Shown here piece after piece: positions 4,570 through 22,021 of a stretch of 24,470 bases of DNA. The stretch lies in IMG/VR virus record IMGVR_UViG_2909272501_000001. One strand, 5' to 3'. The position numbers and the translations under genes are program-made. The stretch's first letter is position 1, and every line of letters begins with the position of its first letter. The stretch is from a virus. Taxonomy: Duplodnaviria; Heunggongvirae; Uroviricota; Caudoviricetes. Below the pieces are notes generated by a model. The model searched no databases. It was not told the origin of the DNA and was given only the letters and a program-made list of their open reading frames with translations.

Positions 4570-5161
4570 GGGACACCCCCATCACCGGCAGACGGGCAGC
4601 AAGGGAGAGCACATAGTCACGGACAAGGGAACGGCGGGCACTGCGTTCATCACCGGCGACGGTGCGAAGCATGCAGATACGGGGATGACGGTCTGCGCGA
4701 CGGACAGCCGCAAACACAAAGACAAATTCAGGGTGTGAAGGGGTAAGGGTCGTAGCCATAAGGCAACCTCCGATAACAGCATAAATGACGCTATCGCCGG
4801 AGTTTCCACGCTCGATGGCGATAGCCCAGACGGGGGTGGAAATACCGGCGTTATCGGAAACCGGCCAGCCCGGAGGCTGCCCCGCCTGAGCTACCATTGA
4901 CTCTGCGGTATAATGAGCGGACGCGGGCAGAATGCACGGAGTGCCATTTGCTCGACTGACCACACACCACACCATAATCTGGCGCTCTGTGGCGTTGATT
5001 GCGACACAAAAAAAGACGCATGGCGCGTCATATGTCGCCGATAACATACTCGGGTTTCCACGCCCGGCTGCCGATTTTGCGGCAGCGGAAAAACTATATC
5101 CGCAAATGCCGGAAAAAGGCAAGCCAGAAAAAGGGAGTTTTTGCAGAGCGGGCATCATCAT
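4562..5161 (-). CDS. Uncertain ORF (199 aa from the internal Met; 214 aa on the track) covering the position where P4 carries its kil/eta/cI immunity region
   Basis: Open frame whose stop overlaps the next gene's start, but the translation is low-complexity and several other frames are also open in this GC-rich stretch. May be a misread of small genes and/or an RNA locus. Confidence 0.2.
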
Positions 5162-7280: not shown

Positions 7281-7853
7281 ATGGAAAGCACAGCCTTACA
7301 GCAGGCCTTTGACACCTGTCAGAATAACAAAGCAGCATGGCTGCAACGCAAAAATGAGCTGGCAGCGGCCAAACAGGAATATCTGCGGCTTCTGTCAGGA
7401 GAAGGCAGAAACGTCAGCCGCCTGGACGAATTACGCAATATTATCGAAGTCAGAAAATGGCAGGTGAATCAGGCCGCCGGTCGTTATATTCGTTCGCATG
7501 AAGCCGTTCAGCACATCAGCATCCGCGACCGGCTGAATGATTTTATGCAGCAGCACGGCACAGCACTGGCGGCGGCACTGGCACCGGAGCTGATGGGCTA
7601 CAGTGAGCTGACGGCCATTGCCCGAAACTGTGCCATACAGCGTGCCACAGATGCCCTGCGTGAAGCCCTTCTGTCCTGGCTTGCGAAGGGGGAAAAAATT
7701 AATTATTCCGCACAGGATAGCGACATTTTAACGACCATCGGATTCAGGCCTGACGCGGCTTCGGTGGATGACAGCCGTGAAAAATTCACCCCTGCGCAGA
7801 ACATGATTTTTTCGCGTAAAAGTGCGCAACTGGCATCACGTCAGTCTGTGTAA
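7281..7853 (+). CDS. psu: Psu, polarity suppression / capsid decoration protein
   Basis: 190 aa, N-terminus MESTALQQAFDTCQNNKAAWLQRKNELAAA..., last gene of the sid-delta-psu operon. Confidence 0.85.
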   Translation: MESTALQQAFDTCQNNKAAWLQRKNELAAAKQEYLRLLSGEGRNVSRLDELRNIIEVRKWQVNQAAGRYIRSHEAVQHISIRDRLNDFMQQHGTALAAALAPELMGYSELTAIARNCAIQRATDALREALLSWLAKGEKINYSAQDSDILTTIGFRPDAASVDDSREKFTPAQNMIFSRKSAQLASRQSV

Positions 7854-7888
7854 AATTCCCCGAAAATCCGCCCGTTTTTACTGAAAAA

Positions 7889-7972
7889 AGCCATGCATCG
7901 ATAAGGTGCATGGCTTTGCATGCGTTTCCCTGCCTCATTTTCTGCAGACCGCGCCATTCCCGGCGCGGTCTG
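7889..7972 (+). other. Two strong hairpins after psu (7889-7915, 9-bp stem; 7945-7972, 11-bp perfect stem); possible terminator and/or packaging-region structure
   Basis: AGCCATGCA...TGCATGGCT and CAGACCGCGCC...GGCGCGGTCTG inverted repeats. Only the first is followed by a weak T-rich tract. Confidence 0.3.
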
Positions 7973-8017
7973 AGCGTGTCAGTGCAACTGCATTAAAACC
8001 GCCCCGCAAAGCGGGCG

Positions 8018-8036
8018 GGCGTGGCGGGGGGAGCAT
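8018..8036. other. cos-like site (candidate cohesive-end sequence)
   Basis: GGCGTGGCGGGGGGAGCAT matches 15 of 19 positions of the P2/P4 cohesive end as I recall it (GGCGAGGCGGGGAAAGCAC). It sits right after psu, where cos lies in P4, next to a GC-rich imperfect palindrome (7999-8019). Confidence 0.35.
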
Positions 8037-8118
8037 TGCGCGCTAAGGCTGATATTATAATTTTCTTTAATTCTATTTGGTATTTTGGCTTTATTCGTCA
8101 GAAGGAACGTTTAGAAAT

Positions 8119-8146
8119 AGACCACTACAATGGATTGTAGCGGTCT
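8119..8146 (-). terminator. Hairpin terminator candidate ending the int-RT-partner operon
   Basis: 12-bp inverted repeat AGACCACTACAA/TTGTAGCGGTCT (one G-U-compatible mismatch), 4-nt loop, ~10 nt downstream of the partner gene stop, followed by a modest T-rich tract on the minus strand. Confidence 0.4.
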
Positions 8147-8155
8147 GCATGATAT

Positions 8156-8896
8156 CTAGCGTTGCATTTCAGTTACTATGAAATTTTCTTCTGTAATAGA
8201 ATTCATTATCTCAAAGTACAATTCTTCAGGTTGAATAAACGCCAACTCTTTGCAAAGGTTGACAATGGTATCACTATAAGTGATACCCATCCGAGGATTG
8301 AAAAGCTCAAATCTCTTGATGTTTCTTTTGTTTTTTGAGTAAAAGTTTAAAGTGAAATATATTAGCACCTGTCTAAGATCGTAAACACTAAACTTCCTAT
8401 CTCCTGATTTTATTTCCACAAGAACATTTGAATAATAAATATCGCCATATGAATTATTTATTACTCCGCATCCATCGAATTGTGGAGACACTTCAATTTG
8501 GTTTTCCATTCCATATCGAGACAAAATGTTTCTTGCTATTTCCCTTATGGCATTGTACTCAACCATGCTTAAGGGTAGCTTGAAGTTAGAACCGTAAGCG
8601 AACCGCTGTAGATATTCTTTTGTTTTTTCAAAAACAACCTGAAAATCAGCATTATGGAAGATATCATGTGCTGAAAGAATATTTCTGTCTAACGAATCAT
8701 TCTGTATTGCCCTATATAAATTAAATGCGCACTCATTAACAAAGACGTTATTTGACCTATTAGCGCAGTCATCTAGAGGAGGATAAACGTCCTCGATGAG
8801 ACTGCCGTTAATGATGCGTATGAAATTATTAGCATTTGGAAGCAATTGATTCCAAAATGAAGTGAATTTTCGAGAAAACGTTAATTCAGATATCAT
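8156..8896 (-). CDS. Hypothetical 246-aa protein, partner of the reverse transcriptase; possible nuclease-like effector
   Basis: ATG overlaps the RT stop (ATGA at 8893-8896), with RBS GAGGA inside the RT 3' end. Very AT-rich. Segment GDIYYSNVLVEIKSG could be a D...ExK (PD-(D/E)xK-like) core, but this is unverified. Confidence 0.75.
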   Translation of the reverse strand: MISELTFSRKFTSFWNQLLPNANNFIRIINGSLIEDVYPPLDDCANRSNNVFVNECAFNLYRAIQNDSLDRNILSAHDIFHNADFQVVFEKTKEYLQRFAYGSNFKLPLSMVEYNAIREIARNILSRYGMENQIEVSPQFDGCGVINNSYGDIYYSNVLVEIKSGDRKFSVYDLRQVLIYFTLNFYSKNKRNIKRFELFNPRMGITYSDTIVNLCKELAFIQPEELYFEIMNSITEENFIVTEMQR

Positions 8897-10521
8897 AGCG
8901 CATCCTCAAGATTTCTTGCGGTATGCCTTTTACTTGCCCAATCCCTGTAAATCACCTCTACAAAGTTGAATGTTTTCTTATTATGCTCTCTCCAGTGCCG
9001 TCCTTCATCACCTAAGATGTAACTGGAAACGATCAATAGTCTTCTCTGCAACGGATGCATTGCAGAGAAATTTTTTTTGATATCAGAAAGCCATGCGTAA
9101 GAATTAATTTTTGCCATTGACTGTGTAACTATGTTCTTGACTAAGATGCTTTCTGGATTGTTATTGTATATTTCACTAAGGATTAGGGTGGATTTTTCTG
9201 AATTTTCTTTTGAGAGCATTCGGGCTACATAGGCTAAGTTGAGCTCAGTACTCAAAATATATGAATCTTGTTTAATTAGTGCAGTTATTTTATCAAGAAT
9301 AATATCTTTGGTTTCTGTGCTTAATTTTTGCCAGTTGGAGTTAGCTACTTGAATTATAGTTGTAAATATTGGATATAACTCATGCAAGTTATTAAACATT
9401 ACTTTGAAAGCACTACTTATTATTTCATCTGATGTTGCTGAGAATGCCTTTATCAAATGCTTGCTAAAAGATTGGTTAATTTTTGATTTTTGTAACTCAC
9501 TACTCAGCATAGCTAACAAGTCAAAATCTTTTAAAGATTCCTTTATCTCTTCATATTCCTCTATCGCATTTGCTGAGTAAGGATCGAATCTTATAGGAAG
9601 ACTCATAAATTTAGCCTTCATAGGAGATTCTTCATCTTCATCATTACCATGCAACTTAGCTTTAGTTACTGAAAGGAACTCTTCTTTAGTAACAATATTG
9701 GTTTTTTGTTTCTGTAAAGTTAGCCCTTCATTTTCCATCAGTTTTTTACTAAGCAAAGTTAAAATCTTATGAGCATCCTCTCTAGAGTTACAAAAAATAA
9801 CAAAGTCGTCGACATAACGCTTATAGTTGATTCTATTCATAGACAATAATTTATCAATAGAATCTAGAGCTAGTTCTGCTAATATTCTAGAGGCAGGACA
9901 TCCAACTGGTACTCCATATGATTTTGTTTCACTAAATGTCTGTAGTAATTTCTTGATTTTCCCAGAGTAATCTTTATTGGGGTCGACTCTATCTAACGCA
10001 TTTTCTAAACGGTGGTGATAAATACGCGGATAGAAATCTGCTATATCGCATGTAAGTACATACTTTATTTCATCGTTAGAACATTCAGAGATACTGTCTT
10101 CTTGATATTTTCTCCAAGAGATCTCTTTATCAAAAAGAGAACCATCAGCAAGGTTTGGTTTAAAGCGATATGAATAAACCTGCGTTTTAGTAGATCTATT
10201 CCTTTCAATATCATCAGCGATTTTTAAAACTAACCCAAGAAAAAAAGCATTCCAGAATGGATCAATTTGGGTCGCCCACCTGTAACCATAATAACCAATA
10301 CTTGAAAAGCTATTAATTATGTTTGGTGGAATCTCGATCCTTTTATTTTCAAAGTCATTAAATGTTTGCATTAATGCAGTTTTTACTTTCTCCTTATCAT
10401 CTTCAAATAACCGACTTTCAAATGGGTAAGGGAAAATATCTGTATCGCCGTGCTTTATAATATTTTCCAATGCAAGCTCAAAGCAATTTTCTAGTTTACT
10501 ACTATCAAACTCGTTACTCAT
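8893..10521 (-). CDS. Reverse transcriptase, 542 aa, with ~230-aa alpha-helical C-terminal extension; UG/Abi-like defence-associated RT candidate
   Basis: RT motifs in canonical order: LTCDIADFYPRIYHHRL (motif A-like), SYGVPVGCPASRILAELAL (motif B'-like), KRYVDDFVIF (YVDD catalytic motif C), NEGLTLQKQKTNIV (motif D/E-like). RBS AAGGAGA; start overlaps the int stop by 8 nt. No retron-type VTG motif seen. Confidence 0.85.
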   Translation of the reverse strand: MSNEFDSSKLENCFELALENIIKHGDTDIFPYPFESRLFEDDKEKVKTALMQTFNDFENKRIEIPPNIINSFSSIGYYGYRWATQIDPFWNAFFLGLVLKIADDIERNRSTKTQVYSYRFKPNLADGSLFDKEISWRKYQEDSISECSNDEIKYVLTCDIADFYPRIYHHRLENALDRVDPNKDYSGKIKKLLQTFSETKSYGVPVGCPASRILAELALDSIDKLLSMNRINYKRYVDDFVIFCNSREDAHKILTLLSKKLMENEGLTLQKQKTNIVTKEEFLSVTKAKLHGNDEDEESPMKAKFMSLPIRFDPYSANAIEEYEEIKESLKDFDLLAMLSSELQKSKINQSFSKHLIKAFSATSDEIISSAFKVMFNNLHELYPIFTTIIQVANSNWQKLSTETKDIILDKITALIKQDSYILSTELNLAYVARMLSKENSEKSTLILSEIYNNNPESILVKNIVTQSMAKINSYAWLSDIKKNFSAMHPLQRRLLIVSSYILGDEGRHWREHNKKTFNFVEVIYRDWASKRHTARNLEDAL

Positions 10522-11698
10522 TCACATTCTCCTTAATAAAAATATAATCTGAATACCACTGCATCATATCACGGCGTTTATCAATATATTGAGCATGATT
10601 ATACGTACCTCTAATATTATTCTTATCTATATGAGCAAGCTGTATTTCTATCCAAGCCGAATCATATCCTTTTTCGTGGAGGATAGTAGATAAGGAATGT
10701 CGAAATCCATGACCAGTAAGTTTTCCACCATAACCAATACGCTTGATAACTTGGTTAATACTCGCCTCACTCATAGGCTTGTTCGGATCGTTCCGCCCCG
10801 GAAAAACATAACTATACTTCCCTGTCATCATCTTGAGTTCATTTAGCAAATCTAACGCTTGAGTCGACAAAGGCACAAGGTGTGATCTGCGCATTTTCAT
10901 CCTTTCAGCAGGAATTTCCCAAATAGCGTTATCTAAATCAAATTCTGACCATAATGCCGCACGTAATTCGATGGTTCTAACACCTGTAATCATGAGCAAT
11001 TTCGTGGCAATCAGGACAAGCCGACTTCCGGTATATCCGTTTAAGGCGCGAAGAAAATCAGGTATCTCATTAGCCTTTAAGAACGGGAAATGATTTGATT
11101 GGTGTACATTGAGGGCGCTTGAAAGATCCGCAGCAGGGTTAAACTCAGCCCTTCCAGTAGCAATGGCATAGCGGAAAACTTCTGAGCATCGCTGCCGAAC
11201 TTTGCGCATTTTTTCTAATGCACCGCGCTTTTCGATTTTACGCAGCACATTAAGCAGTTCTAGCGGTTTAATCTCTCCCACTGGCCTTGTTCCCACATAA
11301 GGAAAAATGTCGTTCTTAAACGCTTCCATGATGTCTGATGCATATCCCGCCGACCATTTGGTAGACTTCTGTTGATGCCACTCTCTGGCTATCTTTTCGA
11401 AGGCGTTCTCTGACTCTGTTTGCAGAGCCAGCTTTTGCTCTTTTCGAACCTCACTAGGGTTCTTTCCTTCTGCCACAAGTTTTCGAGCTTCATCACGACG
11501 GGAACGAGCATCAGCAAGAGTGATCGTTGGGTAAACACCAAGCGAGATCATTTTGGGTTTACCGGCATAGCGATAACGAAATCGCCAGCTTTTACTTCCA
11601 TTTGGCTCTACAAGTAAAGACAACCCTTGCCCATCCCCAAGTGTATAGGCTTTAGCTTCAGGTTTAGCACGGCGAATCTGCATATCATTTAGGGGCAT
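10514..11698 (-). CDS. int: P4-type (DUF4102-family) tyrosine integrase
   Basis: 394 aa. N-terminal ...RRAKPEAKAYTLGDGQGLSLLVEPNGSKSWRFRYRYAGKPKMISLGVYP... is characteristic of P4/CP4-57-type integrases. Catalytic R...HxxR...H...Y residues (GVRTIEL, GHGFRHSLS, LAHIDKN..RGTYNHAQY). Confidence 0.88.
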   Translation of the reverse strand: MPLNDMQIRRAKPEAKAYTLGDGQGLSLLVEPNGSKSWRFRYRYAGKPKMISLGVYPTITLADARSRRDEARKLVAEGKNPSEVRKEQKLALQTESENAFEKIAREWHQQKSTKWSAGYASDIMEAFKNDIFPYVGTRPVGEIKPLELLNVLRKIEKRGALEKMRKVRQRCSEVFRYAIATGRAEFNPAADLSSALNVHQSNHFPFLKANEIPDFLRALNGYTGSRLVLIATKLLMITGVRTIELRAALWSEFDLDNAIWEIPAERMKMRRSHLVPLSTQALDLLNELKMMTGKYSYVFPGRNDPNKPMSEASINQVIKRIGYGGKLTGHGFRHSLSTILHEKGYDSAWIEIQLAHIDKNNIRGTYNHAQYIDKRRDMMQWYSDYIFIKENVNE

Positions 11699-11749
11699 GT
11701 GTATAGAATTCCAAAATCGAACAGGAACATATACATAATCCTATACACA
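11698..11749. repeat. Arm-type 9-mers near the int start: TGTGTATAG (11698-11706, inverted) and CTATACACA (11741-11749)
   Basis: Same 9-mer as at 613-633; the first copy overlaps the int start codon. Confidence 0.3.
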
Positions 11750-11861
11750 TTTAGTACTGGATTCTACTGGAAAGTTATGGACTAATACGAACAGTAAAAA
11801 CAAAAAATCTTTTATAAAACAGTGCGGTTATGGATAAATACGGATGTTTGAAGAAGTGGAG

Positions 11862-11881
11862 ATGGTGCCGATAATAGGAGT
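11862..11881. repeat. Right copy of the imperfect direct repeat; candidate att core shared by both elements
   Basis: ATGGTGCCGATAATAGGAGT, see 537-556. The first 9 nt (TGGTGCCGA) resemble the reverse complement of a tRNA 3' end, but no T-arm follows. Confidence 0.5.
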
Positions 11882-12023
11882 AAAACACTCGATTAATCTC
11901 GTGTTAATGCCATCACCTACGACCATTACTAATTGATTGAATCTGATAGAAAAATTATCATTTTCTATACCTTACAATCAATTTACACATTACAAACGCT
12001 CCGACACTTTAGCCGGAGATTTT

Positions 12024-13301
12024 ATGAGATACAAGCCTAACCAATACTTAATCTGTGATTCTTACGGTAACTACTATTTAAGGATCACGCTGCCTGTGTA
12101 TATGCAGCCCTTTTTTGAAGGAAAAAGGACGTTTGTCAGAAGTCTACACACAAGTAATCTTCGTGTGGCACGTCGAAAGCGTGATCAGATTGCAGATGAA
12201 TACCATTGCTTACGGGAGAGTGTTGCCCCTGTAAACAGCACAATAGAAAACACGCTGGAACTGTTACGCAGTAAGGCTAAATACGCCAAAACAGCTACCA
12301 GAATGCAAGATACAGCGTCTTCGTGTCCGTCATTGCTTAAAATTCTTGAAATCTACCTGACAATTAACAGCACGAAGAAGAAGCCAGCCACTTTAGCTAA
12401 GGCAAGAAAAGCGGTAGAGATGTTTCTCTCCTACCGTAAAAAGCCTGATATTGCATTGCAAGATGTAAGCCGCACCACTGTTACAGGCTGGATTGAACAC
12501 ATGCAAAAAACCCTTTCACAACAATCAATTGCAAATTATATCAGCCCAATGGTCCAGCTATGGGAGTTAGCTTCATCACGTTACCACGATGCGCCAGAAA
12601 GGGCGCTCTCCCCCTGGCGAGGGCATAGGCTTGATGTGGCACAAAGTAGAGAGAGCTACGAGGCATTTTCTAACAAAGAGCTATTGCAGGTGTTGCAAGT
12701 ATTTTCCGGTGATTCAGCAGAAAACAAAGAAATGACGGCTTTGTGTCTTATCGGTTTATATACAGGTATGCGGATCAATGAGATAGCAAGTATCACAATA
12801 GACGATGTGAAAGAGATCGAAGGTGTGCTGTGTTTTGAAATCACACAGGGAAAAACGAAAGCTGCGGCACGTCTTGTGCCTGTGCATAACCTTATCACTC
12901 CGTTGGTGTTGTCGCTGCGTGAAAAGCCTCACAATGGCTTTTTGTTCTATCACGCCAGCATTACAGAACGTGCTGACGGTAAACGCTCTACGTGGCATAC
13001 ACAACGATTTACAAGAGCTAAACGAAAGGCTTTAGGGGAAAAGGGAACAGAAAGGAAAGTGTTTCATTCTCTGAGACACGGAGTAGCACAGCTTCTTGAT
13101 CGAAATCAAATTCCAGAAGACAGGATCGCCCTTCTCCTGGGCCATACACGCGGCAATACAGAAACATTCCGCACATATAGCAAGAATGCAGCTTCTCCAG
13201 TAGAGCTTAAAAAATATATTGAGCTTTTACGCTACCCTGAAATAGAGAAAGGCTTATCAATCAATAAAAAATCAAATTTAAGGCGTAAAACAACGCCATA
13301 G
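12024..13301 (+). CDS. Second tyrosine recombinase/integrase (425 aa from the ATG at 12024; track ORF begins at a TTG at 11937)
   Basis: Catalytic signature GMRINEI (R), FHSLRHGVAQ (HxxR), LLGHT (H), TYSKN (Y). RBS GGAG 5 nt before the ATG. AT-rich. Confidence 0.75.
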   Translation: MRYKPNQYLICDSYGNYYLRITLPVYMQPFFEGKRTFVRSLHTSNLRVARRKRDQIADEYHCLRESVAPVNSTIENTLELLRSKAKYAKTATRMQDTASSCPSLLKILEIYLTINSTKKKPATLAKARKAVEMFLSYRKKPDIALQDVSRTTVTGWIEHMQKTLSQQSIANYISPMVQLWELASSRYHDAPERALSPWRGHRLDVAQSRESYEAFSNKELLQVLQVFSGDSAENKEMTALCLIGLYTGMRINEIASITIDDVKEIEGVLCFEITQGKTKAAARLVPVHNLITPLVLSLREKPHNGFLFYHASITERADGKRSTWHTQRFTRAKRKALGEKGTERKVFHSLRHGVAQLLDRNQIPEDRIALLLGHTRGNTETFRTYSKNAASPVELKKYIELLRYPEIEKGLSINKKSNLRRKTTP

Positions 13302-13381
13302 ACGTAATAAAGAGGCTTCAATATAGATTGATGCCTCTTTTATGATTATCTCGTTACAGAGCGTTTCATAGGCGTTTAAGG

Positions 13382-14059
13382 CTATTGTTTAAATACTGGC
13401 GTTACAACGTCTTGCCCTGGGCTTTTTTGATTTTTCTGTTCTGTTGTATTTACCTGCATTTTAACCTGTCCCCCTACAGATTTATTTGGTGCTGTTTTTA
13501 CAGCAATAGCATTAGTGGTGGCCTTAGAGACAAGACGAATTTGCTCAAAATCAAGAGTAAACAATAAGCTTTCGCTTGCTTCTTCTTCGTAAGACATGCC
13601 AACTAACACAACGTTGTCATAATTTTTTAACTCAGTGACAAGTAGGAAAGGTTGGCGACTGTCCATCAACTGATTTAGGTATTCAAGCATAAGCATACGT
13701 CGATTGCCGTTAATTCCCGCATTCTTAATCATATCGGGATTGAGTTTCAATACGGTTTCAGAGATACGCCCCTGTAATGTGAACTTGTTATTCCGTATTT
13801 GAACATGATCACTAACTTCTGATCCTGATTCGACGGCATAGCTTGTAACGTCTGCATTTCGGCTAACTTTCGTCGATTCCACGTTATCAAATGATAATGC
13901 CCGGTAGTCATTGTAAGCAGCATTTGCACCACTGCCGAGGTTAGAGGTAATAATCGCAAAGCCGTTACCCCCTTTAGTTGTTCTACCGTTGCTATCGTTG
14001 CTTGTGCTGTTGATTTTCGCCTCAGTCGGGCGACCAATGGTTAACGGACCCATTGCCAT
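13382..14059 (-). CDS. Hypothetical protein, 225 aa (possible virion-associated protein)
   Basis: ORF with RBS AAGGA; last gene of a co-oriented leftward block that includes capsid-like candidates. No recognisable motif. Confidence 0.45.
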   Translation of the reverse strand: MAMGPLTIGRPTEAKINSTSNDSNGRTTKGGNGFAIITSNLGSGANAAYNDYRALSFDNVESTKVSRNADVTSYAVESGSEVSDHVQIRNNKFTLQGRISETVLKLNPDMIKNAGINGNRRMLMLEYLNQLMDSRQPFLLVTELKNYDNVVLVGMSYEEEASESLLFTLDFEQIRLVSKATTNAIAVKTAPNKSVGGQVKMQVNTTEQKNQKSPGQDVVTPVFKQ

Positions 14060-14106
14060 AATTTGTAATCCTTATTTAAGGGGGCTAAACAGCCCCACAG
14101 TGATGA

Positions 14107-15948
14107 TTAATAGGTTGACCCGCCTGACATAACACCCAGCGTTAATAGCTTGCTAAACTCAGCGGAGGATGCCTTTGATTTGAAGTCGATAAATTCGCTC
14201 AATCGTCCGGTGTCTGATTCGATAGTTAGCGGCACTTCTGCATTTACTTGTAATTCTGGATTGAAGTTAATAACAGGTGCAAAGGTGTAAGAAGGAGTCT
14301 TGATAGCTTGTTGTGCTGCACTCTGTTTCAGATTTGCAATGTTTTGTCCTTCGAGAGTGTATTGATTTACAGCCTGCGCCCCGCCTACCGTTTCTTCTGG
14401 CGTAAACCAGCCTTTAATAGTGTTAAACAGGGAATTGCTGTTATCTGGCTTAGTTGTTCCGGTGCCAGCGCCTTTATATTGATCAGGAACGAGATTAGAA
14501 AGATTCTGTTTCATCCCTTCGTTAGACAGTGGCGGTGCATCACCTAAATTCTTCTGAATAGCTTCCGTCTTCTCGTCGTTTTTCATCAGCCAGTTGATTG
14601 CTTTCATTACGGCGTTAACCAATCCGCCGATAGCCTCGCCTAATTTGGTAAACATTGGCAGCATTGCAACCATACTCTTTTTGAACTCTTCAATCACAGC
14701 AGGATCGAGAGATTTCATAAAGCCATCAACAAAGGCGATCCCTTGTGAGTCAGAAAGCCCACTAAGTGCATTATTCAGTTCACGGAATTTAATAACGCTT
14801 TCCTGTTGTGCCTGTGTTACCCAGCGCCCTGATTCTCGTTGTTCTCGTGCTGATTGTTCCACTTCTTTAGCGGAGCGTGTCCAGTATTTAGAGGTGAGCA
14901 TCAAATCATCAGCCAGATCTTCCAGACGACTACCGATTTGTGCATCTGAATAGCCTTTAGCTACCATTCCCTGAACTGCTTTACTAACCAGACCAGCCGG
15001 ATTATCAGCAAAGTCTTTTAGATCCTTTTTAGTTAGGAATCCTTCATTCATTAAAGTATTGATGCCGCTATCGCCGCCCTTCCATTCTCCTTTACCAGTT
15101 TTCTTATCAACTACATATTCAGCTTCATCATAAGATTTGGTTGCACGTTCACGCACATCTTTCATCTGATCCAGATACTTACGTTTACCTTGTTCGCCCA
15201 TCATTGAATCAACGCCGTTTTTATACGCCCATTGTTCAACATCGTTCATCTGGTTAACGTCTACACCGCCCAGCTTCGCACGGCTATACAATTCACCCAG
15301 CGTTTCAGCATTCGCAAAGCTGTTAGTAACAAATTCAGAGGCTTTGCTCATAGCCATATACGTAGCGCCAGCGCCTAAGCCACCCAGCATAACAGCCGCA
15401 GCACCGCCGCCAATACTCCCGCTACCCTTAACAGGTGCATAGGCTTTAGCGTGAGCGTTACGATTGCCATTAATCTTACGTTGTTGCTGTTGTAGGCGTT
15501 TCATTTGGCTATTCATACGTGCCAGACTAATAGCGCCTCTTTCATATTGGAGGGCAATTTCTCTAGCCTGTGCAATAGCTTTATATTGTTCCGCTACAGA
15601 AAGACGGTGCATTGCACTAATGCTTGATCCAACGTCTAAAAGCTTTAATTCTGCCTTCTCTTTGCGTGCTGCCAGGGCTTTTTGTTCTCTTGCAACTACA
15701 CGTTGAGCGGCTAATTGTGCTTTAGCATTGGCTTTATCTGCCTGTGCTTGCTTTTTAGCAATATCGTCTACGTCTTTTTTTGCTTTAGCGGTTGATTGTT
15801 TATGTGTCTTAACACGCAATTCTATATCTTTCACCGCCGCCATTTGTTTACGAAGTTTTTCTACTTCTGCTTTTGCTTTCTCTAATGATGGTCGATCAAC
15901 CTGGAAGGTGACAACGTTTGATAAGCGGCTGACGTTAAGTTCTAACAT
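14107..15948 (-). CDS. Large coiled-coil / Gly-rich protein, 613 aa; tape-measure-like or other minor virion structural protein candidate
   Basis: N-terminal ~170 aa is Lys/Ala/Gln-rich with heptad-like periodicity, followed by a Gly-rich hydrophobic segment (GSIGGGAAAVMLGGLGAGATYMAM) and then a globular region. RBS AGGGA. Confidence 0.55.
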   Translation of the reverse strand: MLELNVSRLSNVVTFQVDRPSLEKAKAEVEKLRKQMAAVKDIELRVKTHKQSTAKAKKDVDDIAKKQAQADKANAKAQLAAQRVVAREQKALAARKEKAELKLLDVGSSISAMHRLSVAEQYKAIAQAREIALQYERGAISLARMNSQMKRLQQQQRKINGNRNAHAKAYAPVKGSGSIGGGAAAVMLGGLGAGATYMAMSKASEFVTNSFANAETLGELYSRAKLGGVDVNQMNDVEQWAYKNGVDSMMGEQGKRKYLDQMKDVRERATKSYDEAEYVVDKKTGKGEWKGGDSGINTLMNEGFLTKKDLKDFADNPAGLVSKAVQGMVAKGYSDAQIGSRLEDLADDLMLTSKYWTRSAKEVEQSAREQRESGRWVTQAQQESVIKFRELNNALSGLSDSQGIAFVDGFMKSLDPAVIEEFKKSMVAMLPMFTKLGEAIGGLVNAVMKAINWLMKNDEKTEAIQKNLGDAPPLSNEGMKQNLSNLVPDQYKGAGTGTTKPDNSNSLFNTIKGWFTPEETVGGAQAVNQYTLEGQNIANLKQSAAQQAIKTPSYTFAPVINFNPELQVNAEVPLTIESDTGRLSEFIDFKSKASSAEFSKLLTLGVMSGGSTY

Positions 15949-15982
15949 GCTAATTGTTTCCCTGTATTATGATTGTTGTTTA

Positions 15983-16180
15983 TTATTGTTTTTTAGAGCA
16001 ATAGTATTGAATTGCTTCGAAAGTGCTGCATCCAGTCTGAAAGACACGCTGACGCACATTATTTGCATCAATTTCTAAAAGGCGGCAAAGCGCCGATGTG
16101 TTTATAACTGATTCCTCGCTAATAGCTGCCAGTTCTTTTACAGATTTAAGAATTAATGCCTGTGAATTTTCTGCGTTCAT
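15983..16180 (-). CDS. Small hypothetical protein, 65 aa
   Basis: ORF between the 343-aa and 613-aa genes; no motif recognised. Confidence 0.3.
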   Translation of the reverse strand: MNAENSQALILKSVKELAAISEESVINTSALCRLLEIDANNVRQRVFQTGCSTFEAIQYYCSKKQ

Positions 16181-16335
16181 TGGTTTTCTCTCACATATAT
16201 ATTTTTATTTGGGTTTGTAGACAGTAGAAAAAAAATAAGGGCAAGAGACAGCGCATATTTTGCTTATATGATTATCCCTTACCCTTATTGCCCCGATTAT
16301 TTCCAGACGATGGGGAATCGTCTATTAACGCTTTA

Positions 16336-17367
16336 TTACGCAGCAGATCCGAAGATGATAGCTTGCGGAATGTTGTTTACTGGCAGATAAGATGTCTCAG
16401 TAACCACAGATGGGAATTGGAATTCATCCTTGATTAGATATTGGTGATGTAACACGGCATCTTGACCTAACTCAGCATGACGCACACCAACGCCGCTATG
16501 AAGCTGATAGCACTGTGCCGCTTTATCCATTACTGGAACAATTGCGAAACCGTTCTCTCCGATGTGAGCAACAATCTCAGGAAACATTGACACATCAATA
16601 ACAGTGATCCCACCAATCTGGAAAGAGTCATAGGCTGGGTTAGAATCAACCATACGGGTAAACAGGGCCGTAGCACTCGCATCACCTGCATATTTCACCA
16701 TGTCACTGATCAGCGGGTTAGATGACAAACCATCAGCAGCAGCGCCAGCAGCAAAGATAATTACACCAGTTCGCTTTGCAGCAAGACCAGACCCCAGCTT
16801 TTCACTCTGTAAGCGCACCGCTTTACGAATAGCAAGGAACGGGTTAACAGTAGTCGATGCAAAGTCGATAGCGGGTACCGTGGTTTTAGCCTGACCGTCG
16901 AGGAAGTCGAGATCACCTTGTCCGGCATATTCAGATTCAACTTTCAGGCCCAGCAGCGCGGTAATCAGATCCACTTCAACACGGTTTGCGTGTGAACGGT
17001 AATGTGCCTCAGAGAAATCATTAACCGCTACCAGCATAGCATCAGAACGGTTTGGATATTGGCGGCTGTATTGTTCCAGGTCACGAGAAGTAACAGCGTT
17101 AATACTGCCGACGTGTTTCATCTGGAAAAGTTTGTTTGACCATTCCTGACGTTTAGAGGCGTTCCAGTCGCTTTGAGCGTAAGGCGAGGTTTCCCCAGCT
17201 ACCTGCACAAACTGATCAATCAGGTCGGTAAGAAGAATGCTGTTTTCTGTATGATATTGCACATCGAACAGATCGAGATTAGTAATCAGGGTATTAAGTG
17301 CATTCTCATAAGCAAATGGAGTTACTACCGCAGTATTAACGCCAAAATATGTTGATAAATCATTCAT
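16336..17367 (-). CDS. Hypothetical protein, 343 aa; major-capsid-like candidate (speculative)
   Basis: Size and position directly after a ~125-aa decoration-like gene resemble the lambda D/E arrangement. No direct sequence similarity to lambda gpE that I can confirm by eye. Confidence 0.5.
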   Translation of the reverse strand: MNDLSTYFGVNTAVVTPFAYENALNTLITNLDLFDVQYHTENSILLTDLIDQFVQVAGETSPYAQSDWNASKRQEWSNKLFQMKHVGSINAVTSRDLEQYSRQYPNRSDAMLVAVNDFSEAHYRSHANRVEVDLITALLGLKVESEYAGQGDLDFLDGQAKTTVPAIDFASTTVNPFLAIRKAVRLQSEKLGSGLAAKRTGVIIFAAGAAADGLSSNPLISDMVKYAGDASATALFTRMVDSNPAYDSFQIGGITVIDVSMFPEIVAHIGENGFAIVPVMDKAAQCYQLHSGVGVRHAELGQDAVLHHQYLIKDEFQFPSVVTETSYLPVNNIPQAIIFGSAA

Positions 17368-17381
17368 TATTATTTTCCTTG

Positions 17382-17765
17382 TTAAGTCGTAGGGATCGCA
17401 AGTTCTTCATAACCAGCAATTACAAAGCCGAGAGATTGCAGTTTTGCAATAACACTTGCCTTTTCCATACTGTTAAATTCAATCCCATCTTCAGCCAGAA
17501 TAACGAAAGTAGGATGTGCAACCACTACGCTTTCCTGTCCTTCATAAGCCGGTTCAACCACTACGTGAGCAATATCAGAAGCGGTTGTTGCTTTGGTGCC
17601 ATCGGCTTTCAGCAAAGCCCCGACAATAAGATCGTCAGTGAGAGGTGAAGCCAGTTTGACGAGGCGATCTTGCAGCACTGGATCAGCAGCGTAAGCTACT
17701 ACCTTACAGCGTGAACGGGAATTATCCGCATTCACTGCTTTTAATTTTCCATATGGGTTAGCCAT
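17382..17765 (-). CDS. Hypothetical protein, 127 aa; head-decoration-like candidate (speculative)
   Basis: Small Ala/Val-rich beta-type protein starting MANPYGKLKAVNADN..., immediately upstream of the 343-aa gene. Confidence 0.45.
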   Translation of the reverse strand: MANPYGKLKAVNADNSRSRCKVVAYAADPVLQDRLVKLASPLTDDLIVGALLKADGTKATTASDIAHVVVEPAYEGQESVVVAHPTFVILAEDGIEFNSMEKASVIAKLQSLGFVIAGYEELAIPTT

Positions 17766-17769
17766 AAGA

Positions 17770-17967
17770 TTATTTTCCTTTCAGTTGTTTAATTTTAGAT
17801 TTAAGGGCATCAGCAAGACTAACCGCATCAGCCGATTTAAATAATTGAGCAGTGGTAGAACGAAGACTTTCGGGAGTAACTCCCAACAGTGCGGCAACCT
17901 TAATGAGGTTTTCATCACTAACAATCATCGTTTCCCCGTCTTTGCTGATAATCATTTCTTGTTTCAT
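17770..17967 (-). CDS. Small hypothetical protein (65 aa from the ATG with RBS AGGAAC; track ORF extends to 18009)
   Basis: ORF with plausible RBS; first gene of the leftward structural-like block. Confidence 0.3.
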   Translation of the reverse strand: MKQEMIISKDGETMIVSDENLIKVAALLGVTPESLRSTTAQLFKSADAVSLADALKSKIKQLKGK

Positions 17968-18948
17968 AAATAACGTTCCTGTTAGTGCCAGACAAATAAA
18001 AAGCCCCAATGCCGTAAGAGGTTCTGACCAGCAAAGGGGCTTTAACGTGCGGGCAATTACATAATTGATAAGTTAAACTATAAGAGGATTAAACATATCA
18101 GCAAATACACTTTTTAAATATACTTGATGATATGCTTAAAGGGTGAATAGATACTCCTGAAAACATGCTCTTAAGAAAACATGCGGAATCAATCAGGAAT
18201 ATCTATTCGGGGCGCGGTGGCTAACCGCTATCTTTCATGGTGTGGATGCACCAGTCAGATTTTAAGGAATCACTATTCCAATCTACTCACAGATTAAATT
18301 TTTAATAAGGATTAACTACACCAACAGTAATCTACCGTTTCAGAAAATCGTTTCACAACCAAAGATTATAGATCCGCATTCTATAAAACCCGTTTTGCTA
18401 TCAATATTTCCAAAGTTTATTGCACCATTCTTAGCTAAACTCTCTCTACTTGCGGCTAACGCTATGCAGATGATAGTTTTTTGACAACAACTTAATAGAT
18501 TATTCTGTTACTAACTTCCGTCATTAAATAAGAGTTTAATGATGTTAGTAAATAGTTATAAAATATAACTATCAGTGTAAGGCTCTTTAATGTTTTCGGA
18601 CAAAATAAGGAGCTTTAGGATAAGCATAGATGAAAAATAAGAGCGGGAAGGGCAAGGAGATAACACCTACCCGCTTTTATCAAAAATTAAGCACAATGCC
18701 TAACAACATTCATCAACACAACGTAGAAACAATCAACAATCAAAGAGGGAGTTATGATTATTCTAAAACTTCTTGATAGATGGAAGGTAATATTTGTTAG
18801 AGGTTAATGCCACTCAACCTTTGAGGCTATCACCTTCCATATGCAGGGATTTATGACAGTAGAAGGATTAACACCAACTAAAATCTTTTAATCTACCCCT
18901 AAAATTATTATATAACAAAATCATCATAAATGCAAATGATTTTCATTA

Positions 18949-19251
18949 TCATTTAGAGAAAATAGCACTTTTTGCTAAATCATTTACTAATTGCTGAATC
19001 TCTTCACTTGCAGCCTTTAACGTGCTGGCGGTGTCTGTGATGGTTTGAGTGCACATCTTGGCATCTGATAGCTCTAAATCGCTCACCAGAGAGACAAAAT
19101 CTTCTAAGCATACATTGAGCTTCATTAAGCTAATAACGCATTGAGAGAGCGTATAATCGCATAAATCTGAATAGGCTTGATTTATTCTTGTTTGTAGTGA
19201 GATAGTCAGATCTAAAAGTTGTTCCATTGCATTGCTAATATCTTCTTCCAT
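18949..19251 (-). CDS. Hypothetical acidic helical protein, 100 aa
   Basis: ORF; start ATG overlaps the stop of the upstream 81-aa gene. Confidence 0.4.
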   Translation of the reverse strand: MEEDISNAMEQLLDLTISLQTRINQAYSDLCDYTLSQCVISLMKLNVCLEDFVSLVSDLELSDAKMCTQTITDTASTLKAASEEIQQLVNDLAKSAIFSK

Positions 19252-19496
19252 TATGCGTATTCTCCTTGTAATGCATCATTAATCATATTCAATACGATGT
19301 TAAAAGGTGTCTTGAGCGTCAGCACTTCATCACGGTAACGTTCTAATGCTTCGTAGTCTTCTGTTTCTTTTGCCAGCCGGATTAACTCAGCATAGTTTTT
19401 TGCATCAGACAGGAGCATCTGAAATAATTGTGTTTCTTGAATATAGCCAATCATTATTTTTCCTTTTTCGAATATTTTCATTGGGCGCTTATACAT
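19251..19496 (-). CDS. Hypothetical protein, 81 aa
   Basis: ORF in the co-oriented operon downstream of the rep-like gene. Confidence 0.4.
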   Translation of the reverse strand: MYKRPMKIFEKGKIMIGYIQETQLFQMLLSDAKNYAELIRLAKETEDYEALERYRDEVLTLKTPFNIVLNMINDALQGEYA

Positions 19497-19511
19497 ACGC
19501 CCGTCTTTCTA

Positions 19512-19892: not shown

Positions 19893-20026
19893 TTTCCCTC
19901 TTTTTATGTGGATTATAAAAACTGAATGCCATAGTTACGATGAATATTGCTACAAATGCACTTGCCATATGTATTGCCCGATCTGTTGTTACTGATTGTT
20001 TGTGATGTTATAAATCATTTATTTCC

Positions 20027-20596: not shown

Positions 20597-20649
20597 TAAA
20601 AATCTCCTTGATGTAATCACGCTCTACGGCGCTACTATGGTGATAAAAA

Positions 20650-20820: not shown

Positions 20821-20839
20821 AGTTTTCTCCTTCTCTTCT

Positions 20840-21883: not shown

Positions 21884-22021
21884 TAACAAAATTCTGTAGG
21901 GGTGGCTAACAGTTTTCTGTGGGGGTGTCTAACATAATTCTGTTAGGGTTGGGGTAACAGTTTTCTGTTAGGGTGCATATTTCTTTAAAAGTTAAGGATA
22001 ACAGAATTCTGTGGGGGTAGC
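21884..22021. repeat. Iteron cluster: five ~23-bp direct repeats, consensus TAACA(n)3TTCTGT(n)GGGGT
   Basis: Copies begin at 21884, 21907, 21930, 21955 (tandem, 23-25 bp spacing) and 21999 (after an AT-rich spacer), upstream of the operon containing the RHH and wHTH genes. Confidence 0.6.

What the first reader, a model, noticed from the sequence alone, without database searches (positions are those of the whole stretch)
8890..10525. Integrase, RT and partner are chained by overlapping stop/start codons
The int stop and RT start overlap by 8 nt (10514-10521), with the RT RBS AAGGAGA lying inside the int coding sequence. The RT stop and partner start overlap as ATGA (8893-8896). No promoter-sized gap exists, so the cargo appears to be co-transcribed and translationally coupled with the integrase. 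That is unusual, because it ties cargo expression to int expression.
Basis: seen in the sequence. Interest (0 to 1): 0.5.

Follow-up and report, generated by a model that had tools for sequence, protein, structure and literature searches.

The report
Defence genes fused to satellite integrase
The integrase of a P4-like phage satellite in E. coli runs straight into a known two-gene anti-phage system (DRT8) with no gap, an arrangement that is normal for this satellite lineage and whose effect on cargo expression is still untested.

Summary
On the minus strand, int (10514-11698), a reverse transcriptase (8893-10521) and a 246-aa partner (8156-8896) are chained by an 8-nt overlap (ATGAGTAA) and a 4-nt overlap (ATGA). 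RefSeq annotates the same coordinates.

The element is a P4-like satellite at tRNA-Thr. The cargo is DRT8 (UG7 reverse transcriptase plus a PD-(D/E)XK nuclease), sitting in the known psu-int defence hotspot.

The two junctions have different histories:
- **RT/nuclease.** The NTGA overlap is found in 73 of 77 DRT8 loci across many phyla, so it is ancestral to the system.
- **int/RT.** This abutment belongs to the satellite lineage. In 13 of 16 cargo classes behind this integrase type (Septu, Gabija, DRT3, Lamassu-like and others), the first cargo gene starts within about 30 nt of the int stop, on the same strand, with its ribosome-binding site inside int's variable tail. In the canonical P4 lineage the figure is 1 of 32.
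- **Linkage.** The last 200-240 nt of int travel with the cargo.

Co-transcription from the int promoter is plausible: there is no gap, no terminator, and a clear orientation bias. It is unproven. The RT has its own strong ribosome-binding site, and close DRT8 relatives persist without an intact int.

The parts
10514..11698 (-). Tyrosine integrase of a P4-like satellite, tRNA-Thr (thrW) type, 394 aa, intact.
   Evidence: Pfam finds Arm-DNA-bind_3, Phage_int_M and Phage_integrase. NCBIfam finds PRK09692. RefSeq has the same CDS. The catalytic residues are conserved in alignment A2.
10514..10750 (-). The 3' part of int, about 200-240 nt, which co-segregates with the DRT8 cargo. It encodes the HxxR, H and Y catalytic residues and the variable tail DYIFIKENVNE.
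   Evidence: Identity to the closest int carrying another cargo (L003) falls from 98-100% to 73-78% at about 10750-10770. Identity to DRT8-carrying elements with a diverged int body rises to 92-97% from about 10740 onward. Pair statistics agree. GC drops to about 0.33.
10514..10521 (-). int stop / RT start overlap, ATGAGTAA.
   Evidence: Read from the sequence. The ORF ends agree. RefSeq coordinates agree.
10528..10534 (-). Shine-Dalgarno sequence AAGGAGA of the RT, inside int's last codons.
   Evidence: Read from the sequence. The same motif precedes the RT in L007, L008, L328, L330 and L332.
8893..10521 (-). Reverse transcriptase of DRT8 (UG7 group, Class 1 UG/Abi), 542 aa.
   Evidence: PADLOC Drt8, E = 4.9e-166, covering profile positions 4-492 of 493. 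Pfam RVT_1. The YVDD motif is invariant in A1.
8893..8896 (-). RT stop / nuclease start overlap, ATGA, with GAGGA at 8903-8907 upstream.
   Evidence: Read from the sequence. The NTGA overlap is found in 73 of 77 DRT8 loci.
8156..8896 (-). RT-associated PD-(D/E)XK nuclease, the DRT8 effector, 246 aa.
   Evidence: PADLOC RTasPDDEXK, E = 5.5e-69. D152, E161 and K163 are invariant in 79 of 79 homologues.
8119..8146 (-). 12-bp hairpin AGACCGCTACAA-TCCA-TTGTAGTGGTCT, 10 nt after the nuclease stop. It is a possible end of the cargo transcript.
   Evidence: Read from the sequence. The scan did not flag it because the tail has only 4 T in 8 bases. Inference only.
7999..8018 (-). GC-rich terminator-like hairpin next to the cos-like site. 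It is the first terminator-like site on the minus strand downstream of int.
   Evidence: Terminator scan.
8018..8036 (+). cos-like sequence GGCGTGGCGGGGGGAGCAT, 15 of 19 bases identical to P4 cos. It marks the psu-side border of the hotspot.
   Evidence: compared with the P4 sequence printed in Rousset 2022 Table S2A.
7281..7853 (+). psu, the other border gene of the P4 defence hotspot.
   Evidence: Pfam Psu, E = 3.9e-88.
11699..11862 (-). AT-rich region between the att core and the int start, where the int promoter is expected. It contains a TCCAGTA direct repeat (11771-11765 and 11761-11755) and an inverted repeat GTGTATAG/CTATACAC (11748-11741 and 11706-11699).
   Evidence: Read from the sequence. 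The region is 95-100% identical to L003. The promoter position is inferred from P4 and IntS literature. The consensus scan found no site here.
11863..11881 (.). 19-nt copy of the 3' end of tRNA-Thr, the att core. It separates this satellite from a second integrated element.
   Evidence: Coordinate transfer from L002, where the tRNA-Thr gene starts at this point and homology to the window ends.
10598..10626 (-). Promoter-like motif ATAAGA-17 nt-TATAAT (9/12), formed by the D-K-N...T-Y-N codons of the int catalytic motif. It is a candidate internal promoter.
   Evidence: Own scan. The motif is not enriched in abutting cargo classes compared with convergent ones.

Best explanation
**What it is.** This is the integrase end of a P4-like satellite integrated at tRNA-Thr. 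Its psu-int defence hotspot holds a type 8 defence-associated reverse transcriptase system (DRT8): a UG7 reverse transcriptase plus a PD-(D/E)XK nuclease.

**The RT/nuclease junction.** The ATGA overlap is ancestral to DRT8. The nuclease start overlaps the RT stop in nearly all relatives. The nuclease is therefore most likely made by ribosomes that have just finished the RT (termination-reinitiation), which would keep the potentially toxic effector no more abundant than its partner. This step is inferred.

**The int/RT junction.** This overlap is a recombination-made fusion that is typical of this integrase lineage.
- Cargo modules are swapped between satellites with one crossover inside int.
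- Each module therefore brings the last 200-240 nt of int, a module-specific int tail, and the ribosome-binding site of its first gene embedded in that tail. This is shown by sequence comparison.

**Consequence for expression.** The cargo has no intergenic promoter region. It forms a terminator-free, co-directional unit int -> RT -> nuclease that ends at the hairpins after the nuclease gene.

**Most likely mechanism (inferred).**
- RT and nuclease mRNA arises mainly by read-through from the int promoter, which is weak and negatively autoregulated. Weak promoters inside int's AT-rich 3' end may add to this.
- The RT is translated from its own strong Shine-Dalgarno sequence, so coupling to Int translation is optional rather than obligatory.
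For: **Identity of the genes and the element.**
- PADLOC gives Drt8 at 4.9e-166 and RTasPDDEXK at 5.5e-69.
- Pfam finds Psu, Ogr_Delta and the integrase domains.
- Rfam finds the P4 immunity RNAs.
- The element sits at tRNA-Thr next to proA.
- Mestre 2022 defines DRT8 and records UG7 in P4 hotspots.

**Ancestral RT-nuclease coupling.**
- 73 of 77 loci have the NTGA overlap, including Bacteroidota, Firmicutes, cyanobacteria and an archaeal MAG.
- The nuclease residues D152, E161 and K163 are invariant.

**Lineage-wide int-cargo fusion.**
- RefSeq loci with Septu-like, Gabija and ABC-3C/Lamassu-like cargo lie 11, 1 and 3 nt after int.
- In IMG/VR, 13 of 16 cargo clusters are co-directional and start within 30 nt of the int stop. 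The canonical P4 lineage has 1 of 32 (Fisher p = 4e-8) and the ssrA-type lineage has 14 of 39.
- PADLOC names these cargoes.
- The Shine-Dalgarno sequence of the first cargo gene lies inside int's variable tail.

**Crossover inside int.**
- The mosaic profile places it at about 10740-10770.
- Pairs with different cargo but an int body at least 97% identical share only 64-75% identity in int's last 230-30 nt. Pairs with the same cargo but an int body under 92% identical share 83-96.5% there.
- An int 3' remnant still sits upstream of DRT8 in a non-P4 island.

**One transcription unit.**
- No minus-strand terminator-like site lies between 11698 and 8156. The first one is at 8018-7999.
- 13 of 16 cargo clusters are co-directional (binomial p = 0.011).
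- Where the cargo is convergent, a hairpin followed by a T-run comes directly after int (L100).
- Most abutting classes have no promoter-like site of at least 9/12 in int's last 250 nt.
- The one recurrent motif is not enriched where it would be needed.

**Int promoters of this type.** They are negatively autoregulated and weakly expressed.
Against: - No transcript data were available, so every statement about promoters is inferred.
- The consensus scan does not find the int promoter itself. Its failure to find an internal promoter therefore carries little weight.
- A 9/12 site with a perfect -10 (TATAAT, 10603-10598) lies 77 nt upstream of the RT start. The equivalent site scores 10/12 in the Providencia int remnant.
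- Close DRT8 relatives (85-89% identical RTs) keep intact ORFs without an intact int: Morganella has ssrA, then 299 nt, then the RT; Providencia and Brenneria have only int 3' remnants.
- From my memory of the abstract of Piazzolla et al. 2006, which could not be read here: in P4 lysogens only short 5' int transcripts were detected. If that holds here, read-through would be low.
- The cluster counts rest on my own ORF and start-codon heuristics and on IMG/VR sampling.
Confidence: 0.6

Rival explanations
1. Strict version. The cargo has no promoter at all and is obligatorily co-transcribed and translationally coupled with int, so the amounts of RT and nuclease follow Int synthesis.
For: - The 8-nt overlap, with the Shine-Dalgarno sequence inside int.
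- No gap and no terminator.
- A weak predicted hairpin that pairs the RT AUG and part of the Shine-Dalgarno sequence, which ribosomes finishing int would melt.
- The orientation bias in this lineage.
Against: - The hairpin is not more stable than shuffled sequence (z = -1.4; 18 of 200 shuffles fold as well).
- AAGGAG with 7-nt spacing is a strong independent initiation site, whereas int itself has no obvious Shine-Dalgarno sequence.
- DRT8 persists without int in Morganella and with only int remnants in Providencia and Brenneria.
Confidence: 0.2
2. Internal promoter. The int 3' segment that travels with the cargo carries the cargo's own promoter, for example ATAAGA-17-TATAAT at 10626-10598. 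RT and nuclease expression would then be largely independent of the int promoter, and the overlap would be only a packing feature.
For: - The last 200-240 nt of int co-segregate with the cargo.
- An int 3' remnant is retained upstream of DRT8 where the rest of int is gone (L330, L008).
- Promoter-like sites with a perfect -10 sit at the same place in 7 of 16 cargo types and in L330, scoring 9-10 of 12.
- My recollection that full-length int mRNA is scarce in P4 lysogens (not verifiable here).
Against: - The motif is built from conserved D-K-N...Y-N-H codons, so coding constraint explains its presence.
- TATAAT is no commoner in abutting cargo classes than in convergent ones: 4 of 13 versus 2 of 3 in this lineage, and 6 of 13 versus 14 of 26 in the ssrA-type lineage. 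Six of the 13 abutting classes have TATAAC.
- In the window the -35 matches only 3 of 6.
- Most abutting classes show no site of at least 9/12 in int's last 250 nt.
- Linkage of the int 3' end to the cargo is also what plain recombination would produce.
Confidence: 0.3
3. Pure genome compaction. The small P4-type capsid limits genome size, so intergenic DNA is squeezed out and the overlaps carry no regulatory meaning.
For: - Satellites of this family are about 11-12 kb.
- The cargo here adds about 2.7 kb (about 8053-10750).
- Overlaps of 4 and 8 nt are common in compact operons (general knowledge).
Against: - The canonical P4 lineage uses the same capsid but keeps 30-167 nt spacers and mostly convergent cargo.
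- The RT/nuclease overlap is conserved in chromosomal loci of many phyla that have no packaging constraint.
- Compaction explains why the gap is missing, but not where the cargo is transcribed from.
Confidence: 0.15
4. Annotation artefact. The true RT start lies downstream, or the int stop is wrong, so the overlap does not exist.
For: None found.
Against: - The ATG at 10521 is the first start after the upstream in-frame stop, and the next in-frame candidate lies beyond the start of the conserved block, inferred from the near-identical L007 and from alignment A1.
- Homologues from Morganella, Brenneria and Chimaeribacter start with the same MSN/MNN-xFDS sequence.
- PGAP calls the same coordinates.
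- The int stop is simply the first in-frame stop.
Confidence: 0.03

Closest known systems
DRT8 (UG7 reverse transcriptase + PD-(D/E)XK nuclease; Mestre et al. 2022, PMC9226505)
   Same: - Full-length match of the RT to the Drt8 profile and of the partner to RTasPDDEXK.
- The YVDD and D...ExK motifs are intact.
- The gene order is RT followed by nuclease.
- UG7 has already been reported in P4-like hotspots.
   Different: Nothing in the proteins differs. What differs is context. Most DRT8 loci elsewhere have a non-coding stretch upstream of the RT, roughly 50-1000 nt, whereas here the RT starts inside int. The mechanism of DRT8 was still listed as not established in 2026.
P4 psu-int defence hotspot (Rousset et al. 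2022, PMC9122126; NAR 2026, PMC13586616)
   Same: The cargo lies between cos/psu and int of a P4-like satellite. The same slot holds Gabija, Septu, DRT3 and other systems in sister elements.
   Different: The papers treat int as a fixed border gene and speak of native promoters. Here, and in most of this int lineage, there is no intergenic DNA, the cargo's ribosome-binding site lies in int's tail, and the crossover lies 200-240 nt inside int. I found no mention of this in the text I could search.
Canonical P4: int followed by cII (NC_001609)
   Same: The first hotspot gene (cII) is co-directional with int and is followed by a terminator.
   Different: P4 has a 66-nt spacer. Across the P4 int lineage, spacers are 30-167 nt and 21 of 32 cargo classes are convergent.
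Integron cassette expression (the Pc promoter lies inside the intI coding sequence)
   Same: This is a resemblance in how it works, drawn from general knowledge. The exchangeable cargo lacks a promoter of its own and depends on signals located in or before the integrase gene.
   Different: - intI is divergent from its cassettes, whereas here int and cargo are co-directional and overlapping.
- No attC/attI sites are involved. The exchange looks like homologous recombination inside int.
- This locus is not a member of the integron family.
Negatively autoregulated tRNA-associated integrase genes (P4 int, KplE1 intS)
   Same: The int gene reads away from attL, and its promoter region lies between the att core and the int start. 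This int is 46% identical to IntS-type integrases. The literature reports autorepression and weak expression.
   Different: Regulation of this particular int has not been studied. No downstream cargo operon has been described for those integrases.

Membership tests
DRT8 (UG7 + PD-(D/E)XK) | The RT belongs to the UG7/Drt8 group over its full length. | tested here: met
   PADLOC Drt8, E = 4.9e-166, residues 11-532 on profile positions 4-492 of 493. The next best hit is RT_UG21 at 1.2e-37.
DRT8 (UG7 + PD-(D/E)XK) | An intact RT catalytic motif (YxDD). | tested here: met
   The sequence reads KRYVDDFVIF. R235, V237, D238 and D239 are invariant in 16 diverse homologues.
DRT8 (UG7 + PD-(D/E)XK) | An adjacent downstream PD-(D/E)XK effector with an intact D...ExK motif. 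| tested here: met
   RTasPDDEXK, E = 5.5e-69. D152, E161 and K163 are invariant in 79 of 79 sequences.
DRT8 (UG7 + PD-(D/E)XK) | The C-terminal alpha-repeat domain of Class 1 UG/Abi RTs. | not tested
   No structure was predicted. The only indirect evidence is that the profile match runs to the C-terminus.
DRT8 (UG7 + PD-(D/E)XK) | Anti-phage activity that requires both active sites. | not testable with these tools
   Shown for another UG7 system against T5 (Mestre 2022).
P4-like satellite | The core genes psu, delta, a sid-like gene, the alpha primase and int, in P4 order. | tested here: met
   Pfam finds Psu and Ogr_Delta. RefSeq annotates a primase, Icd-like protein, DUF5375 protein and others in the same order as P4.
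P4-like satellite | The P4-type immunity RNA region. | tested here: met
   Rfam finds C4 antisense RNA, isrK and c4-a1b1 at 4814-5099.
P4-like satellite | A cos site next to psu. | tested here: inconclusive
   There is no match to P4 cos within 3 mismatches. GGCGTGGCGGGGGGAGCAT at 8018-8036 matches 15 of 19 bases.
P4-like satellite | Integration at a tRNA gene, with int next to attL. | tested here: met
   In strain H3, tRNA-Thr lies 165 nt upstream of int. The window keeps a 19-nt core at 11863-11881.
P4 defence hotspot cargo | Variable genes located between psu/cos and int. | tested here: met
   Same flanks, different cargo in L003-L006.
Operon with translational coupling (int-RT-nuclease) | Same strand, overlapping stop and start codons, and no terminator in between. 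| tested here: met
Operon with translational coupling (int-RT-nuclease) | A single transcript covering all three genes. | not testable with these tools
   No RNA data were available. The indirect support is the orientation bias, 13 of 16.
Operon with translational coupling (int-RT-nuclease) | Downstream translation depends on upstream translation. | tested here: inconclusive
   The junction hairpins are not significant (z = -1.4 and -0.5). The conservation of NTGA at the RT/nuclease junction (73 of 77) argues for coupling there.

The most novel reading that the evidence does not exclude
In tRNA-Thr-type P4-like satellites, and in part of the ssrA-type ones, the defence cassettes may be promoterless. 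They would be expressed only as the distal part of the integrase transcript.

Two consequences would follow:
- Int autorepression and the excisionase Vis would set the dose of the immune genes and change it when the satellite is induced.
- The conserved catalytic 3' end of int would serve as the homologous-recombination anchor that lets whole systems be swapped in frame.

This would be an integron-like logic of promoterless cargo, achieved without attC sites.
Probability: 0.2. Interest if true: 0.65.

Novelty: new variant of a known kind. Interest (0 to 1): 0.4.

Why it matters
**Experimental design.** Defence hotspots of P4-like satellites are used as a discovery tool. Candidate systems are cloned "with their native promoter", starting from a primer placed in the int RGTYNHA codons. 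If cargo in this lineage has no promoter of its own, such constructs would be silent. That could account for some of the systems scored as inactive, and it would mean the int promoter region needs to be included.

**How cassettes are exchanged.** The crossover lies inside int, and each module carries its own version of int's catalytic end.

**Regulation.** The arrangement suggests a testable link between satellite regulation (Int, Vis) and the dose of immune genes.

**DRT8 mechanism.** The near-universal RT/nuclease start-stop overlap is a concrete clue, pointing to coupled synthesis and probably a complex, for a system whose mechanism is still unknown.

Tried and rejected
- **Rfam scan of the whole window.** Only the P4 immunity RNAs were found. 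There is no ncRNA in 7800-12100, so there is no sign of a DRT2/3/9-type ncRNA.
- **RNA folds of both junctions.** Neither is more stable than shuffled sequence, so they give no structural argument for obligatory coupling.
- **Consensus promoter scans**. They did not find the int promoter itself, so I treat negative results as weak.
- **Selection test on the internal TATAAT at the Tyr-Asn codons.** There is no enrichment in abutting cargo classes compared with convergent ones. I rejected it as evidence for a dedicated cargo promoter.
- **Alignment of regions upstream of DRT8 in other genera.** There is no conserved leader. A short motif is shared by a few marine gammaproteobacteria and is absent here.
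- **P4 cos search with up to 3 mismatches.** No hit. A 15/19 variant was found by eye and confirmed.
- **Papers that were not held.**
  - Ghisotti 1990.
  - Piazzolla 2006.
  - The supplementary tables of Mestre 2022. I therefore could not check which UG7 locus was tested or how much upstream DNA it carried.
- **Mis-annotation of the RT start or the int stop.** Considered and rejected.

Full report

Yes. The ORF list gives three consecutive minus-strand ORFs: 10514-11698 (394 aa), 8893-10521 (542 aa) and 8156-8896 (246 aa).

Reading the minus strand:
- The second ORF's ATG is at 10521-10519 and the first ORF's TAA is at 10516-10514, so the two share ATGAGTAA.
- AAGGAGA lies at 10534-10528, inside the first ORF.
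- The third ORF's ATG (8896-8894) overlaps the second ORF's TGA (8895-8893) as ATGA, with GAGGA at 8907-8903.

RefSeq (PGAP) annotates the same three genes with the same overlaps in identical DNA of E. coli AH25 and H3.

The RT start cannot be moved. It is the first start codon after the upstream in-frame stop, and the next candidate lies beyond the start of the conserved N-terminal block. Homologues from Morganella, Brenneria and Chimaeribacter begin with the same MSN/MNN-xFDS sequence.

**2. What are the genes and the element?**

- **First ORF.** A complete tyrosine integrase with Arm-binding, central and catalytic domains and an NCBIfam PRK09692 match.
- **Second ORF.** It matches PADLOC's Drt8 profile end to end (E = 4.9e-166). 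The third matches the RT-associated PD-(D/E)XK profile (E = 5.5e-69).
- **Active sites.** The RT keeps YVDD. The partner keeps D152, E161 and K163, which are invariant in 79 of 79 homologues.
- **Left flank.** psu (Pfam E = 3.9e-88), delta and a sid-like gene, the P4 immunity RNA region (Rfam C4, isrK, c4-a1b1) and a 777-aa primase.
- **Integration site.** In strain H3 the same element lies next to tRNA-Thr and proA. The window keeps only a 19-nt tRNA core (11863-11881), because a second integrase-bearing element is inserted in tandem.

The locus is therefore a P4-like satellite. The RT and nuclease occupy the psu-int defence hotspot described by Rousset et al..

The cargo is DRT8. This is the UG7 RT plus a PD-(D/E)XK effector, shown by Mestre et al. 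to protect against T5 with both active sites required. Those authors already noted UG7 in P4 hotspots. Its mechanism was still listed as not established in 2026.

The full cassette is present in 104 of 5,426 complete E. coli genomes.

**3. The RT/nuclease overlap is ancestral.**

I aligned 16 diverse RT homologues and used the alignment to fetch 80 loci from one genome per species. A partner homologue lies directly downstream in 77 of them with a usable start. In 73 of those 77 its start overlaps the RT stop as NTGA.

The remaining four have -8, -1, -1 and +5 nt.

The loci come from Proteobacteria, Bacteroidota, Firmicutes, Verrucomicrobia, Planctomycetes, cyanobacteria and an archaeal MAG. 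This overlap has nothing to do with the integrase.

It most likely enforces coupled synthesis of the nuclease with the RT. That is an inference. The local RNA fold is unremarkable (z = -0.5).

**4. The int/RT abutment belongs to the satellite lineage, not to DRT8.**

In most of the 80 loci, the nearest upstream ORF of at least 100 aa ends tens to hundreds of nt before the RT. Only about six have a co-directional ORF ending within 30 nt. An integrase abuts the RT only in enterobacterial satellites:
- **Citrobacter L007 and IMG/VR L088-L092.** They have the same 8-nt overlap.
- **C. portucalensis L009 and Chimaeribacter L332.** A different integrase, about 40% identical to the window's and integrated at ssrA, stops 2 nt before the RT. 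Its last codons contain AGGAG or AAGGAG.

Sister elements with the window's integrase type but other cargo do the same:
- A Septu-like AAA+HNH pair starts 11 nt after int.
- Gabija starts 1 nt after int.
- An ABC-three-component/Lamassu-like set starts 3 nt after int.
- One convergent cargo lies 70 nt away.

In all of them the integrase is conserved up to ...MMQWYS. It then has a cargo-specific tail of 5-11 residues whose codons hold the Shine-Dalgarno sequence of the first cargo gene.

**5. How general is this?**

I fetched 80 IMG/VR loci for each of three integrase lineages. I then clustered the first downstream gene and counted clusters rather than loci.

| Integrase lineage | Cargo clusters | Co-directional, start within 30 nt of int stop | Co-directional, longer spacer | Convergent |
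|---|---|---|---|---|
| Window's type (at least 86% identity) | 16 | 13 | 0 | 3 |
| Canonical P4 | 32 | 1 | 10 (30-167 nt) | 21 |
| ssrA type | 39 | 14 | 4 | 21 |

- The difference between the window's lineage and the P4 lineage is strong (Fisher p = 4e-8).
- In the window's lineage, 13 of 16 clusters are co-directional (binomial p = 0.011).
- P4 itself has cII 66 nt behind int.
- The abutting first genes include PtuA, three GajA types, Drt3a, DUF4297, LmuA-like, SIR2/STALD-like and REase-like proteins.
- More distant integrases (58-65% identical) in 40-70 kb prophages mostly have large gaps or convergent neighbours.

The counts rely on my own ORF and start-codon heuristics. The three PGAP-annotated examples agree with them.

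**6. The swapped module reaches into int.**

- Against L003, the closest int with another cargo, the window is 98-100% identical from the att side down to about 10770. It is 73-78% identical from there to the int stop, and unrelated beyond.
- Against DRT8-carrying elements with a diverged int body (L007, L092), identity is 78-92% in the body. It rises to 92-97% from about 10740 and stays high through the junction and into the RT.
- Across 40 elements, pairs with different cargo but an int body at least 97% identical share only 64-75% identity in int's last 230-30 nt (7 pairs).
- Pairs with the same cargo but an int body under 92% identical share 83-96.5% there (12 pairs).
- GC falls from about 0.45 to about 0.33 at the same place.
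- In a Providencia island that is not a P4-like satellite, a degenerate remnant of the int 3' end (about 330 nt) still sits directly upstream of DRT8. Brenneria has a weaker remnant.

Crossovers therefore occur inside int. The last 200-240 nt, which encode the HxxR, H and Y catalytic residues, travel with the cargo. This explains why no intergenic DNA is present.

**7. How is the cargo expressed?**

*For read-through from the int promoter:*
- There is no gap.
- No minus-strand terminator-like site lies between the int start and the nuclease stop. The first is at 8018-7999, and a 12-bp hairpin lies at 8146-8119.
- The orientation bias.
- A hairpin followed by a T-run lies right after int where the cargo is convergent (L100).
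- Most abutting classes have no promoter-like site of at least 9/12 in int's last 250 nt.

Integrase promoters of this kind overlap attL, are negatively autoregulated and are weakly expressed. P4 int is repressed by Int and Vis. Read-through would therefore give a low, buffered dose, which makes sense for a nuclease-bearing system. This is inference.

*Against:*
- The scan does not detect the int promoter either, so it is insensitive.
- The D-K-N...T-Y-N codons of int form ATAAGA-17-TATAAT (9/12) at 10626-10598, which is 77 nt upstream of the RT start. The equivalent site scores 10/12 in some alleles and in the Providencia remnant.
- DRT8 relatives with 85-89% identical RTs keep intact ORFs with no int (Morganella: ssrA, 299 nt, RT) or only int remnants upstream.
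- From memory only: Piazzolla et al. 2006 reported that P4 lysogens contain only short 5' int transcripts. I could not read that paper.

I tested the internal-promoter idea by asking whether the perfect -10 is commoner where it would be needed. It is not:
- 4 of 13 abutting classes versus 2 of 3 convergent classes in this lineage.
- 6 of 13 versus 14 of 26 in the ssrA lineage.
- Six of the 13 abutting classes have TATAAC.

The motif looks like a by-product of coding. I therefore favour read-through, possibly with minor internal contributions, but only moderately.

*Translation.* The RT has AAGGAG 7 nt from its AUG, whereas int has no obvious Shine-Dalgarno sequence. The junction hairpin is not significant (z = -1.4). 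Coupling to Int translation is possible but not required.

**8. Comparison with what is known, and novelty.**

- The proteins are ordinary members of DRT8, and the location is the known P4 hotspot.
- I could not find the architecture described in the two hotspot papers or by text search. That architecture is cargo fused to int's stop codon, the ribosome-binding site in a cargo-specific int tail, and the crossover inside int.
- Rousset et al. used the RGTYNHA codons of int as the hotspot border for cloning "with native promoters".
- Functionally, the nearest analogy is the integron, where promoterless cassettes depend on a promoter inside the integrase gene. The orientation and the recombination mechanism differ, so this is a resemblance and not membership.
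- I rate the locus a new variant of a known kind, of moderate interest.

**9. Limits.**

- No transcript data were available.
- The promoter scans use consensus matching only.
- The census rests on IMG/VR sampling and simple ORF rules.
- The literature search covers open-access text only.

Noticed in passing
window 11863-24470: A second tyrosine integrase (11937-13301, + strand; Pfam Phage_integrase and DUF6538), followed by phage-like genes such as a baseplate protein, is inserted in tandem at the same tRNA-Thr site. It is separated from the satellite by a 19-nt tRNA core, and no tRNA gene lies in the window itself.
   Followed up: partly
window 10521-10548 (+ strand): This is the best sigma-70-like match in the region (TTCACA-16-TATAAT, 11/12). 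It lies on the opposite strand, exactly at the int/RT junction, and reads antisense into the int 3' end. A 10/12 version is present in L007. It could be chance in AT-rich DNA or an antisense promoter.
   Followed up: no
window 11699-11771: Just upstream of the int start there is a TCCAGTA direct repeat with a 10-nt period (11771-11765 and 11761-11755). There is also an 8-nt inverted repeat GTGTATAG/CTATACAC (11748-11741 and 11706-11699) that ends at the int ATG. These are possible Int or Vis operator sites.
   Followed up: no
window 4814-5099 (- strand): Rfam finds C4 antisense RNA, isrK and the c4-a1b1 targets, which make up the P4-type immunity RNA module.
   Followed up: no
L328 2338-3001 (Morganella morganii): DRT8 with an 89% identical RT lies 299 nt after the tmRNA gene with no integrase at all. 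A TTGATA-17-TATAGT site (10/12) lies about 150 nt upstream of the RT. This is a natural int-less version of the cassette, found on 23 contigs.
   Followed up: partly
L330 2662-2992 (Providencia rettgeri): A degenerate integrase 3' remnant lies directly upstream of DRT8 in an island that also holds resolvase, RadC and TIR/SEFIR genes. The cassette apparently left a P4-like satellite and took the int end with it.
   Followed up: partly
L011, L012, L013, L014 (and partly L015), about 45 nt upstream of the RT start: A short conserved motif, GTTAAGTTCCTA..G.AATATT, precedes DRT8 in several marine gammaproteobacteria. It could be a native promoter or operator. It is absent from the window.
   Followed up: no
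protein P0084: This is an 896-aa DRT8-like RT (56% identity over 99% of the query) that carries protein kinase domains (PF07714, PF00069) in one polypeptide. That fusion is not among the DRT8 architectures I saw described.
   Followed up: no
L001 5895-9054; hits H4, H21-H23, H37: Several E. coli copies of this satellite carry IS elements: ISEc12 splits psu in AH25, and IS3 or IS1 lie in or near int in others. Strains with an IS inside int upstream of the RT would be natural polarity tests.
   Followed up: no
L105 versus L005 (Gabija cargo): The same Gabija cassette occurs with int stop TAA 1 nt before gajA (L005) and with that stop mutated. In the mutated version int reads on and overlaps gajA by 11 nt (L105). 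This shows how such overlaps can arise by single substitutions.
   Followed up: partly
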